A stretch of 64,000 bases of DNA, from the NCBI GenBank assembly GCA_964016885.1, contig OZ024742.1:279930001-279994000 (forward strand), in the 5' to 3' direction. A program made the position numbers and the translations under genes. The notes below the pieces were generated by a model that was not told the origin of the DNA, searched no databases, and saw only the letters and a program-made list of their open reading frames with translations. This document shows positions 18,700 to 22,132 of this stretch, in pieces (position 1 is the first letter of the stretch; every line of letters starts with the position of its first letter). Source of the stretch: Eledone cirrhosa (taxonomy: Eukaryota).

Positions 18700-21600
18700 T
18701 AAATTGAAACAAAATGAAAACGAAATTTCATTTCTCACTCTTAGTATGGCACTTACTTAAATGTAAGTATATATATATATATGTGCATGCTACTGTACGT
18801 CTGTATACATACATGTATGTACGTATACATGCATACTTACATTTAAGTAAGTGCCATACTAAGAGTGAGAAATGAAATTTCGTTTTCATTTTGTTTCAAT
18901 TTATCGTCTTCGGTATGCCTGACCGATTTAACTCACTCAATATGCAAATTAGGCTGCTCAGCCGTTAATTTTCATAAGGAATGTATATACTTTCGAACGT
19001 TCAACTATCTGGCAGATGGGTAAACGGTGCTGATGATAGCTAACAAGCTTGAAACTAGTACATCGTTCCTGTGTCAGTGTTGAACAAAAAGGTGACGTGG
19101 TTGCCTTAACACCGTATGGCATAAATTCAGGCTGTTCAGTTTGTTTACAAACGAACAAAGCGACGTTAGCGCCGCTAAACTGATACGTGCATATATGTAT
19201 GTGTACCTGTATGCATATGTGTGTATATATGTATATATATATATATATGTGTGCATGCTACTGTACGTCTGTATACATATATGTATGTACGTATACATGC
19301 ATACTTACATTTAAGTAAGTGCCATACTAAGAGTGAGAAATGAAATTTCGTTTCCATTTTGTTTCAATATATCGTTTTCGGTATGCCTGACCGATTTAAC
19401 TCACTCAATATGCAAATTAGGCTGCTCAGCCGTTAATTTTCATAAGGAAAGTATATACTTTCGAACGTTCAACTATCTGGCAGATGGGTAAACGGTGCTG
19501 ATGATAGCTAACAAGCTTGAAACTAGTACATCGTTCCTGTGTCAGTGTTGAACAAAAAGGTGACGTGGTTGCCTTAACACCGTATGGCATAAATTCAGGC
19601 TGTTCAGTTTGTTTACAAACGAACAAAGCGACGTTAGCGCCGATAAACTGATACGTGCATATATATATATGTGTACCTGTATGCATATGTATGTATATAT
19701 GTATATATATATATATATATATGTGCATGCTACTGTACGTCTGTATACATACATGTATGTACGTATACATGCATACTTACATTTAAGTAAGTGCCATACT
19801 AAGAGTGAGAAATGAAATTTCGTTTTCATTTTGTTTCAATTTATCGTCTTCGGTATGCCTGACCGATTTAACTCACTCAATATGCAAATTAGGCTGCTCA
19901 GCCGTTAATTTTCATAAGGAATGTATATACTTTCGAACGTTCAACTATCTGGCAGATGGGTAAACGGTGCTGATGATAGCTAACAAGCTTGAAACTAGTA
20001 CATCGTTCCTGTGTCAGTGTTGAACAAAAAGGTGACGTGGTTGCCTTAACACCGTATGGCATAAATTCAGGCTGTTCAGTTTGTTTACAAACGAACAAAG
20101 CGACGTTAGCGCCGCTAAACTGATACGTGCATATATGTATGTGTACCTGTATGCATATGTATGTATATATGTATATATATATATATATATGTGCATGCTA
20201 CTGTACGTCTGTATACATATATGTATGTACGTATACATGCATACTTACATTTAAGTAAGTGCCATACTAAGAGTGAGAAATGAAATTTCGTTTTCATTTT
20301 GTTTCAATTTATCGTTTTCGGTATGCCTGACCGATTTAACTCACTCAATATGCAAATTAGGCTGCTCAGCCGTTAATTTTCATAAGGAAAGTATATACTT
20401 TCGAACGTTCAACTATCTGGCAGATGGGTAAACGGTGCTGATGATAGCTAACAAGCTTGAAACTAGTACATCGTTCCTGTGTCAGTGTTGAACAAAAAGG
20501 TGACGTGGTTGCCTTAACACCGTATGGCATAAATTCAGGCTGTTCAGTTTGTTTACAAACGAACAAAGCGACGTTAGCGCCGCTAAACTGATACGTGCAT
20601 ATATATATATGTGTACCTGTATGCATATGTATGTATATATGTATATATATATATATATATATGTGCATGCTACTGTACGTCTGTATACATACATGTATGT
20701 ACGTATACATGCATACTTACATTTAAGTAAGTGCCATACTAAGAGTGAGAAATGAAATTTCGTTTTCATTTTGTTTCAATTTATCGTCTTCGGTATGCCT
20801 GACCGATTTAACTCACTCAATATGCAAATTAGGCTGCTCAGCCGTTAATTTTCATAAGGAATGTATATACTTTCGAAAGTTCAACTATCTGGCAGATGGG
20901 TAAACGGTGCTGATGATAGCTAACAAGCTTGAAACTAGTACATCGTTCCTGTGTCAGTGTTGAACAAAAAGGTGACGTGGTTGCCTTAACACCGTATGGC
21001 ATAAATTCAGGCTGTTCAGTTTGTTTACAAACGAACAAAGCGACGTTAGCGCCGCTAAACTGATACGTGCATATATGTATGTGTACCTGTATGCATATGT
21101 ATGTATATATGTATATATATATATATATATGTGCATGCTACTGTACGTCTGTATACATATATGTATGTACGTATACATGCATACTTACATTTAAGTAAGT
21201 GCCATACTAAGAGTGAGAAATGAAATTTCGTTTTCATTTTGTTTCAATTTATCGTTTTCGGTATGCCTGACCGATTTAACTCACTCAATATGCAAATTAG
21301 GCTGCTCAGCCGTTAATTTTCATAAGGAAAGTATATACTTTCGAACGTTCAACTATCTGGCAGATGGGTAAACGGTGCTGATGATAGCTAACAAGCTTGG
21401 AACTAGTACATCGTTCCTGTGTCAGTGTTGAACAAAAAGGTGACGTGGTTGCCTTAACACCGTATGGCATAAATTCAGGCTGTACAGTTTGTTTACAAAC
21501 GAACAAAGCGACGTTAGCGCCGCTAAACTGATACGTGCATATATATATATGTGTACCTGTATGCATATGTATGTATATATGTATATATATATATATATAT

Positions 21601-22128
21601 ATGTGCATGCTACTGTACGTCTGTATACATACATGTATGTACGTATACATGCATACTTACATTTAAGTAAGTGCCATACTAAGAGTGAGAAATGAAATTT
21701 CGTTTTCATTTTGTTTCAATTTATCGTCTTCGGTATGCCTGACCGATTTAACTCACTCAATATGCAAATTAGGCTGCTCAGCCGTTAATTTTCATAAGGA
21801 ATGTATATACTTTCGAACGTTCAACTATCTGGCAGATGGGTAAACGGTGCTGATGATAGCTAACAAGCTTGAAACTAGTACATCGTTCCTGTGTCAGTGT
21901 TGAACAAAAAGGTGACGTGGTTGCCTTAACACCGTATGGCATAAATTCAGGCTGTTCAGTTTGTTTACAAACGAACAAAGCGACGTTAGCGCCGCTAAAC
22001 TGATACGTGCATATATGTATGTGTACCTGTATGCATATGTATGTATATATGTATATATATATATATATCTGTGCATGCTACTGTACGTCTGTATACATAT
22101 ATGTATGTACGTATACATGCATACTTAC

Positions 22129-22132
<4 letters not shown>
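18700..22132 (+). repeat. Retrozyme-like tandem array: 7 HHR-containing units of alternating 468/472 bp, preceded by a 70-bp inverted fragment
   Basis: HHR starts are at 19023, 19491, 19963, 20431, 20903, 21371 and 21843. 18700-18770 is the reverse complement of about 18833-18902. Confidence 0.92.
19023..19067 (+). ncRNA. Type I HHR (first of 7 array copies)
   Basis: AACGGUG-CUGAUGA-U-AGCU(AACA)AGCU-U-GAAA-CUAG-UA-CAUCGUU. Stem I is 7 bp, stem III is the palindrome ACUAGU, and the triplet is GUA. Confidence 0.9.

What the first reader, a model, noticed from the sequence alone, without database searches (positions are those of the whole stretch)
18700..22132. Seven-unit hammerhead-ribozyme tandem array: candidate cephalopod retrozyme / circular-RNA generator
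Seen: seven non-coding 468/472-bp units, each with a complete type I HHR (7-bp stem I, CUGAUGA/GAAA core, palindromic stem III ACUAGU). The array sits in (TA)n and is headed by a 70-bp inverted fragment. Established: metazoan non-LTR retrozymes are tandem HHR repeats processed into monomeric linear or circular RNAs. Palindromic stem III lets neighbouring HHRs cleave as dimers, and 5' inversions are a PLE hallmark. Inference: this is a non-autonomous ribozyme retroelement mobilised by PLE machinery, yielding ~470-nt monomers. I know of no description of such a family in octopods but cannot verify that.
Basis: partly seen in the sequence, partly recalled or inferred. Interest (0 to 1): 0.92.

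Follow-up and report, generated by a model that had tools for sequence, protein, structure and literature searches.

The report
Ribozyme repeat hijacking Penelope-like retrotransposons
This is one copy of a very abundant non-coding repeat that carries a self-cutting RNA motif and appears to spread by borrowing the copying enzyme of Penelope-like jumping genes; the class is known, but these copies keep unusually clear traces of how the copying works.

Summary
The array has 7.2 units of 468/472 bp; six of seven hammerheads are intact (unit 6 has GGAA for GAAA). It is not a local satellite: the exact 31-nt core occurs 10,718 times in the genome, and a sister family has 1,549 matches. Stems I and II covary.

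The 'inverted fragment' is the second arm of a Penelope-like (PLE) insertion. Copies enter (TA)n as two divergent arms, one ending at a short site and one about 59 nt further on. In all 25 of 53 sampled loci where both ends were called, one end is short and one long. Two of the 53 are reciprocal chimeras with a young, intact 821-aa PLE.

The window's units strictly alternate A/B. B occurs elsewhere only as a pure-B insertion 52 Mb away, which is best explained by rolling-circle copying of dimer and monomer circles. Cleavage, expression and circles are untested, and the host taxon is unverified.

Verdict: a new member of the animal non-LTR retrozymes, with a testable candidate partner enzyme.

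The parts
18699..22133 (.). Whole two-armed insertion: short inverted left arm with the long end, 7.2-unit right arm with the short end
18699..18762 (-). Left (inverted) arm: unit positions 81-144 including the ~59-nt tail; its 3' end (long end, unit position 144) abuts (TA)n
   Evidence: 64 nt at 100%; end typed
18771..22133 (+). Right arm: segments B', A, B, A, B, A, B, A'; 3' end at the short site (unit position 82-85) abuts (TA)n; the 5' boundary is approximate (TA-rich)
19023..19067 (+). Type I hammerhead 1; predicted cut after 19060; U.U at 10.1-11.1; stem III is one A-U pair with palindromic CUAG loop
19491..19535 (+). Hammerhead 2; cut after 19528
19963..20007 (+). Hammerhead 3; cut after 20000
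20431..20475 (+). Hammerhead 4; cut after 20468
20903..20947 (+). Hammerhead 5; cut after 20940
21371..21415 (+). Hammerhead 6, core mutated (GGAA for GAAA), predicted inactive
21843..21887 (+). Hammerhead 7; cut after 21880
19061..19528 (+). Cut-to-cut monomer of type A (468 nt); further A monomers at 20001-20468 and 20941-21408
19529..20000 (+). Cut-to-cut monomer of type B (472 nt; six linked differences from A); further B monomers at 20469-20940 and 21409-21880
18846..18904 (+). Tail between the short and long start sites (unit positions 86-144), with a hairpin ending about 12-13 nt before the long end; present in every unit
19114..19122 (+). 5' strand of a conserved long-range helix that pairs with 19319-19327 (or 18851-18859), next to the short start site; covaries across subfamilies
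19185..19310 (+). Alternating purine-pyrimidine (TA/TG/CA) tract of each unit, variable in length; folds as a long hairpin; the short end lies at its 3' edge
18661..18698 (.). (TA)n target, left side
22134..22188 (.). (TA)n target, right side

Best explanation
A young insertion of a non-autonomous, hammerhead-bearing retroelement (animal non-LTR retrozyme) that uses the RT/GIY-YIG protein of Neptune-like PLEs.

Shown: tandem units with a covarying type I hammerhead; thousands of dispersed loci; insertion into (TA)n as two divergent arms that end at two fixed internal sites about 59 nt apart; single insertions that have one retrozyme end and one PLE end.

Inferred: (1) arrays are transcribed as multimers; (2) the weak hammerhead cuts mainly as a double hammerhead and skips some sites, giving monomers and oligomers that a host ligase closes into circles; (3) a PLE protein binds the structured region around the tail, nicks both strands of (TA)n and primes at the two start sites, as shown in vitro for an Anolis PLE; (4) each RT runs through or around the template, and the two cDNAs join head to head. 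The window's array would be about 3.5 turns round an A+B dimer, and the copy at C3:228.05 Mb several turns round a B monomer. The confidence given is for 'PLE-mobilised retrozyme'; the circular-template step alone I put at about 0.5.
For: Copy number: 10,718 exact core matches, control 0. Orientation: of the 53 loci formed by the first 100 listed matches, 17 have cores on both strands and 16 of the 17 read minus then plus; the exception is two separate insertions. Ends: 25 of 53 loci have both ends called, 17 short/long and 8 long/short, none short/short or long/long. Three autonomous PLE families in the genome have hammerheads in their terminal repeats and (TA)n targets; two of them (915-aa and 821-aa ORFs) show both a short and a long end, and the third shows a short end and a continuation. 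Chimeras: L047 has the retrozyme long end and the PLE short end; L044 has the PLE long end and the retrozyme short end; both junctions are internal to both partners and lack (TA)n. Covariation: 94.1% of cells paired against 87.1% shuffled and 31-49% slid, five pairs changed on both sides; a long-range helix also covaries. Template: arm 5' ends do not pile up at the cut (1 of 73 within 5 nt). All 8 segments of the window's right arm alternate B/A; the B marker occurs 9 times in the genome, 4 here and 5 in one insertion whose 7 of 7 segments in both arms are B. Literature: two internal RT start sites define the PLE tail and both strands are nicked and extended (PMC11167929).
Against: No cleavage, expression or circle was observed. 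The active monomer fold is unfavourable (-2.0 against -9.5 kcal/mol for a fold that pairs the core CUG with UAG), and pair 10.1-11.1 is U.U. Rfam gives no hammerhead match at gathering score. In the Xenopus study only 1 of 9 retrozyme dimers cleaved in vitro, and the Anolis PLE used uncleaved RNA. The unit has no detectable similarity to the PLE families tested (no hit), so no parent pLTR was found. In 28 of 53 loci only one end or none was called, and one of the 25 calls (L048) is doubtful. Chimeras also form with other TA-targeting elements, so the partner is not unique. Higher-order repeats of 8 and 10 units fit DNA-level duplication just as well. Four of the five doubly changed pairs rest on one sequence, the sister family. 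A second private haplotype gave two uniform arrays and no single-unit source.
Confidence: 0.82

Rival explanations
1. PLE-mobilised, but through long uncleaved linear transcripts of existing arrays. The hammerhead is a weak or vestigial pLTR relic, no circle is needed, and periodic patterns come from later DNA-level duplication.
For: Hammerhead mutants did not affect insertion by the Anolis PLE, and uncleaved RNA was the main substrate. Arm 5' ends ignore the cut site, which fits uncleaved RNA too. One variant is scattered among units in several arrays. The 8- and 10-unit repeats look like DNA-level duplication. The monomer fold is unfavourable.
Against: A linear transcript of the window's ABAB array cannot give the B-to-B junction inside the left arm of the pure-B insertion, and a pure-B transcript cannot give ABAB without repeated exact switches. 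Array-private changes shared by all units occur in 7 of 12 multi-unit arrays, with intermediate-frequency changes in only 2 of 12. The core and stems are kept with compensatory changes across families about 69% alike.
Confidence: 0.38
2. The unit is the detached, tandemly amplified pLTR of an autonomous PLE that I did not find, as proposed for Xenopus retrozymes. This concerns origin and is compatible with the best explanation.
For: The layout (hammerhead, short site, tail hairpin, long site) matches the pLTRs of the PLEs here. In Xenopus 24 of 57 retrozyme families matched known TEs, nearly all PLEs. About 43,000-62,000 first-look candidates per PLE query went largely unexamined.
Against: No similarity to PLE-A or PLE-B (best E 1.3) and no hit to PLE-D. 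In the 53 loci no PLE ORF runs through a 3' UTR into the unit; the ORF contacts are mid-ORF chimeras or separated by (TA)n. Relaxed hammerhead patterns returned mostly variants of this family plus the sister family.
Confidence: 0.3
3. An ordinary locally amplified minisatellite with a chance hammerhead-like motif.
For: No Rfam match at gathering score; low-complexity TA tracts promote slippage.
Against: 10,718 dispersed exact cores, fixed ends, covariation, 0 motifs in 20 shuffles, a sister family with a canonical G-C closing pair.
Confidence: 0.02

Closest known systems
Animal non-LTR retrozymes (Cervera and de la Pena 2020, PMC7229834: coral, mussel, axolotl)
   Same: Tandem non-coding repeats, one type I hammerhead per unit, low GC (36%), thousands of copies, PLEs in the same genome. 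The hammerhead combines the single-pair helix III with palindromic tetraloop of axolotl HHR_Amex1 and the U.U at the base of helix II of HHR_Amex2.
   Different: Unit 468-472 nt against 150-450 bp there; (TA)n targeting; the two-arm, one-tail insertions and PLE chimeras were not in the passages and Discussion that I read; RNA was shown there and not here.
Vertebrate non-LTR retrozymes as non-autonomous PLE derivatives (Li, Clavereau, Pollet 2026, bioRxiv 10.64898/2026.07.22.740005)
   Same: Same class and same proposed partner; unit length within their 51-972 bp range; 75% of their families reach at most seven units.
   Different: Their link to PLEs is co-occurrence and pLTR homology in 35 species with no mollusc; here no pLTR homology was found, and the link is insertion anatomy and chimeras.
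Canonical EN+ PLEs, Neptune/Nematis type (Craig et al. 2021, 10.1101/2021.04.23.441226; Frangieh et al. 2024, PMC11167929)
   Same: Tandem plus inverted 5'-truncated copies, a tail at one end only, AT-rich or (TA)n targets, hammerhead upstream of the start sites.
   Different: No RT/endonuclease ORF in the unit; tail about 59 nt instead of 30-40 (the PLE tails here are about 85-105 nt).
Newt satellite 2 (as described in PMC7229834); Schistosoma and Dolichopoda hammerhead satellites (recalled, not checked)
   Same: Tandem transcribed repeats whose weak hammerheads cut as dimers.
   Different: Here the arrays are short, dispersed and arrive as ready-made insertions with defined ends.

Membership tests
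Animal non-LTR retrozyme | Short tandem repeat with a type I hammerhead in each unit | tested here: met
   6 of 7 cores intact, at least two consecutive
Animal non-LTR retrozyme | Non-coding | tested here: met
   Only 109-116-codon stop-to-stop frames across the TA tract overlap the array
Animal non-LTR retrozyme | No LTR, PBS or PPT | not tested
   No LTR-like layout seen; primer-binding site and polypurine tract were not searched
Animal non-LTR retrozyme | Low GC (under 50%) | tested here: met
   36%
Animal non-LTR retrozyme | Unit of a few hundred bases | tested here: met
   468-472; just above 150-450, within 51-972
Animal non-LTR retrozyme | Many dispersed copies | tested here: met
   10,718 exact cores; first 100 fall in 53 loci
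Animal non-LTR retrozyme | Self-cleavage as monomer or dimer | not testable with these tools
   Only folding energies
Animal non-LTR retrozyme | Expressed as linear and circular unit-length RNA | not testable with these tools
   Needs raw RNA reads or blots
Animal non-LTR retrozyme | Autonomous PLEs in the same genome | tested here: met
   Intact 915-aa and 821-aa ORFs
Animal non-LTR retrozyme | Homology to a PLE pLTR (Li 2026) | tested here: inconclusive
   None to three families; other PLE families not examined
Animal non-LTR retrozyme | Target-site duplication longer than 4 bp when present | tested here: inconclusive
   Both ends lie in (TA)n, so a duplication cannot be read
PLE-type insertion | Inverted 5'-truncated copy joined to the tandem copy | tested here: met
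   16 of 17 two-strand loci divergent
PLE-type insertion | Tail on one end only (two internal RT start sites) | tested here: met
   25 of 25 loci with both ends called have one short and one long end, among 53 examined; tail about 59 nt
PLE-type insertion | AT-rich or (TA)n target | tested here: met
   (a TA run was part of the end-calling rule; one search printed flanks without that rule)
Autonomous PLE | RT plus GIY-YIG ORF | tested here: not met
   No such ORF in the unit; not filed as an autonomous PLE
Canonical type I hammerhead | CUGANGA, GAAA and NUH core with helices I-III | tested here: met
Canonical type I hammerhead | G10.1-C11.1 closing pair | tested here: not met
   U.U in 15 of 19 recurrent haplotypes; same departure as axolotl HHR_Amex2; the sister family has G-C
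Canonical type I hammerhead | Loop 1-loop 2 tertiary contacts | not tested
   Not examined
Canonical type I hammerhead | Rfam hammerhead model at gathering score | tested here: not met
Local satellite | Confined to one or few loci | tested here: not met

The most novel reading that the evidence does not exclude
The array is a genomic fossil of rolling-circle reverse transcription of a dimeric circular RNA (A+B) by a PLE enzyme, and its sister insertion a fossil of the B monomer circle. The retrozyme recruits the enzyme by structural mimicry of the PLE start region (long-range helix plus tail hairpin 12-15 nt before the long start site) without sequence homology, and the 821-aa family PLE-D is a direct partner. 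This would give sequence-level evidence for the circle-as-template step and name an enzyme-template pair.
Probability: 0.4. Interest if true: 0.75.

Novelty: new member of a known kind. Interest (0 to 1): 0.55.

Why it matters
Which enzyme copies animal retrozymes, and whether circular RNAs are the real templates, are stated as hypotheses in the papers I read. This family offers an intact, young candidate enzyme, exact predicted start sites on the RNA, and natural A/B markers that separate circular from linear templates. The published in vitro PLE assay could therefore test both questions directly. It also shows a family of about 10^4 copies, plus a 1,549-match sister family, that Rfam misses. 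If the host is an octopod, it extends the class to a lineage for which my searches found no description.

Tried and rejected
Rfam: 0 matches at gathering; e-value mode showed hairpin and TA look-alikes (miRNA models), no hammerhead in the 150 of 212 rows shown; rejected as chance.

Expression: no RNA holder listed. The four runs laid are contigs of unrecorded kind; 4449, 1, 27 and 6 pieces were laid for X1, X2, X5 and X6; they show no RNA ends or strand.

Parent PLE: the unit does not resemble PLE-A or PLE-B and gave no hit to PLE-D. Relaxed hammerhead patterns (273 and 202 matches, 30 loci fetched each) led to family variants and the sister family, not to an ORF-linked copy in the loci scanned (ORFs were not scanned in the loci). 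Pfam gave only a weak GIY-YIG hit and no RT hit for the PLE proteins.

Single-unit source of a private haplotype: the L035 haplotype occurs in one other locus, also uniform, so no source unit was found.

Alignment A1 had wrong coordinates for several rows and was discarded. My first reading of a compensatory change in the tail hairpin between the two families is withdrawn: the hairpins lie in different registers. The circular-monomer fold (z -8.3 against 40 shuffles) is not used as evidence because the purine-pyrimidine tract drives it.

Nested insertion as the cause of L044 and L047 was considered and rejected: the junctions are mid-ORF without (TA)n, no remainder of the other element follows, and the two outer ends complement each other.

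Earlier scan notes: none for this genome or sequence. Host taxon: not determined.
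Full report
1. Observation. The window is G000:C3:279930001-279994000 in a 3.0-Gb genome. TRF finds 7.2 copies of a 468-bp unit at 18761-22133, alternating 468/472. Seven hammerhead motifs start at 19023, 19491, 19963, 20431, 20903, 21371 and 21843; the sixth has GGAA for GAAA. A generic type I scan of the window finds the other six and nothing in 20 block shuffles. The cut is predicted after 19060. 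Rfam gives no match at gathering score and no hammerhead in the 150 rows shown of 212 weak matches.

2. The ribozyme motif. Stem I is 6 bp (7 in the youngest subfamily), stem II is 4 bp above a U.U pair, and stem III is one A-U pair with a palindromic loop. Among 19 haplotypes seen in two or more fetched loci, the third pair of stem I is G.U in 9, U.G in 4, A-U in 3, U-A in 2 and unpaired in 1 (that sample was enriched for variation at 10.1/10.2). On nine aligned units, 94.1% of cells pair against 87.1% in shuffles and 31-49% when partners are slid; five pairs change on both sides, four of them only in the sister family. The active monomer fold scores -2.0 kcal/mol against -9.5 for a fold that buries the core CUG; the ACUAGU palindrome gives a -4.8 kcal/mol self-duplex. 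So a monomer should cut poorly, and a double hammerhead is plausible but untested. A second helix (19114-19122 with 19319-19327) covaries: six combinations seen in two or more loci (80 of 123 locus records) all keep 8 of 9 pairs, with U-A/C-G and A-U/U-A swaps; the sister family has a further swap (read).

3. Family size. The exact 31-nt core has 10,718 matches and the reversed control none. I grouped the first 100 listed, all on contig 1, into 53 loci and fetched all 53. A sister family of about 470 bp, about 69% alike around the ribozyme, has a canonical G-C closing pair and the same two-arm layout and 1,549 exact matches. Older subfamilies at about 80% identity also occur.

4. Insertion anatomy. 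Seventeen of the 53 loci have cores on both strands, and 16 read minus then plus, so the 3' ends point outward; the exception is two insertions. Arms end at unit position ~80-89 (short) or ~138-144 (long), followed by (TA)n. Both ends were called in 25 of 53 loci: 17 short/long, 8 long/short, none alike. One of these (L048) is doubtful, one clear case (L074) was missed, and 28 had one end or none called. Nine of ten further loci, picked by likeness to the window or by haplotype, show the same. The window has the long end on its 64-nt left arm and the short end on the right. This matches PLEs: an inverted truncated copy and a tail at one end (10.1101/2021.04.23.441226, passages), explained by two internal RT start sites and nicking of both strands (PMC11167929, parts 1-2 of 4). 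Neither end is at the ribozyme cut (unit position 300), and arm 5' ends do not gather there (1 of 73 values copied lie within 5 nt; arms starting inside the TA tract were left out). The template is therefore not a cleaved linear monomer; it is a circle or an uncleaved multimer.

5. Partner. PLE fragments in the window (5975-7028 minus, 9219-9590 plus) led to families with long ORFs: PLE-A, 915-916 aa in 7 of 9 copies fetched; PLE-B, up to 727 aa; and PLE-D, 821 aa in 3 of 3. They read RT first, then a cysteine linker and a GIY-YIG-like domain, the Neptune/Nematis layout; this assignment rests on motifs, not on a tree. The Atlas places PLE-D with HTH_animal, GIY-YIG and RVT_1 clusters at 0.95-0.98. 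All three carry a hammerhead in the terminal repeat and end in (TA)n; PLE-A and PLE-D show both a short and a long end. In the retrozyme, its sister, PLE-A and PLE-D a hairpin ends about 12-15 nt before the long end. Two of the 53 loci are chimeras with PLE-D. L047 runs: retrozyme long end (inverted), retrozyme units, then mid-ORF into PLE-D and on to its short end. L044 runs: PLE-D long end (inverted), ORF piece, then retrozyme to its short end. The ends are thus interchangeable within one insertion. Against specificity: other loci join the retrozyme to other TA-targeting elements, and the unit shows no similarity to PLE-A, -B or -D.

6. Template traces. Cut-to-cut units in the window alternate in all 8 segments: B', A, B, A, B, A, B, A', with six linked differences, on top of unit-private changes. 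A 91-nt B marker has 9 matches in the genome: 4 here and 5 at C3:228.05 Mb, where 7 of 7 segments in both arms are B for every diagnostic site they cover, apart from one TA-length difference. A linear ABAB transcript cannot give the B-to-B junction in that left arm, and a BBBB transcript cannot give ABAB without repeated exact switches. A dimer circle and a monomer circle, perhaps from one A-B source not in this assembly, explain both. Supporting hints: 7 of 12 multi-unit arrays share changes across all units that no other of the 12 has, and only 2 of 12 have intermediate-frequency changes; one variant sits only in odd-numbered units (9 of 30) of the C7 array and in units 2 and 4 of 8 in the C17 array. 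Against: 8- and 10-unit higher-order repeats fit DNA-level duplication, and a second private haplotype gave two uniform arrays and no source unit.

7. Mechanism. Shown: motif, covariation, dispersal, fixed ends, chimeras, A/B pattern. Inferred: transcription, double-hammerhead cleavage with skipped sites, ligation to circles, PLE binding at the structured start region, two-ended priming on (TA)n, and head-to-head joining. I put PLE mobilisation at 0.82 and circular templates at about 0.5.

8. Known systems and novelty. The class is that of PMC7229834 (passages and the Discussion), which shows circles in coral, mussel and axolotl and proposes PLEs as the mover; its main text has no 'octopus' or 'cephalopod'. 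bioRxiv 10.64898/2026.07.22.740005 (parts 1-3 of 5 and a term search) argues for a PLE origin from co-occurrence and pLTR homology in 35 species without molluscs; 'tail' does not occur in it, and 1 of 9 dimers cleaved. PMC4209133 (passages) describes palindromic helix III and dimer cleavage and proposes circles as templates. Six searches (listings only for papers not named above) showed no description of a cephalopod retrozyme, nor of retrozyme-PLE chimeras. The library lacks most subscription papers, I read no supplements (species lists there may bear on this), and Repbase/Dfam could not be searched. The host taxon is unverified. Verdict: new member of a known kind, interest 0.55, mainly because it makes the enzyme and template questions testable.

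Noticed in passing
window 22320-22520: A tiny two-armed insertion of another element: a near-perfect 110-nt palindrome (fold z -21.5) with the 3' half of a hammerhead-like motif; the left arm carries an ~80-nt extension that reads as its long end. The same element forms the second arm of retrozyme insertions L038 and L061.
   Followed up: partly
window 18517-18660 and 18150-18300: Short TA-flanked pieces: the extension of the 22320 element joined to the end of another element that also occurs, with an inverted partner, at 18150-18300; probably another mixed two-arm insertion.
   Followed up: no
window 17770-17990 and 23445-23495: Two further hammerhead-like motifs of other families, one with a palindromic stem III; related ends occur in L049, L076 and L158.
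   Followed up: no
window 9219-9590 (+) and 5975-7028 (-): 3' fragments of two PLE families (PLE-A, PLE-B); PLE-A has several intact 915-aa copies elsewhere and a 3' UTR of about 2 kb. Coding-frame repeats at 8472-8789 (-) and 11204-11521 (+) suggest that the PLE-A copy is itself two-armed.
   Followed up: partly
L230-L232 (C22:9.23 Mb, C5:28.06 Mb, C17:44.28 Mb): PLE-D, very young (98-100% amino-acid identity in 150 listed matches), intact 821-aa ORF, hammerhead with a long stem II and palindromic loop III. In L230 the sense arm starts next to the long start site where the inverted arm begins, as twin priming on one RNA would give.
   Followed up: partly
L133/L134 (C1:163.57 Mb): Sister retrozyme family, ~470 bp, canonical G-C closing pair, 1,549 exact matches, arrays of up to 15 or more units; a better candidate for efficient cleavage.
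   Followed up: partly
C7:76.11-76.13 Mb and C3:180.05 Mb: Long arrays (30 and at least 20 whole units) with 8-unit and 10-unit higher-order repeats.
   Followed up: partly
L035, L055, L056, L058, L071: Retrozyme arms abut the (CAT)n/(ATG)n-tailed end of another retroelement (RTE-like by recall, not tested); nested insertion or chimera not resolved.
   Followed up: no
L034, L035 (left flanks): A further PLE family (97% identical between the two loci), distinct from PLE-A, -B and -D.
   Followed up: no
window 24975-33601: Very long (TA)n-rich tracts of 3.8, 0.9 and 1.1 kb.
   Followed up: no
runs X1, X5, X6: Contigs from runs under three coded organism labels hold family-like sequence, including older variants; X2 holds only a 35-nt tail match. 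Run kind is not on record.
   Followed up: no
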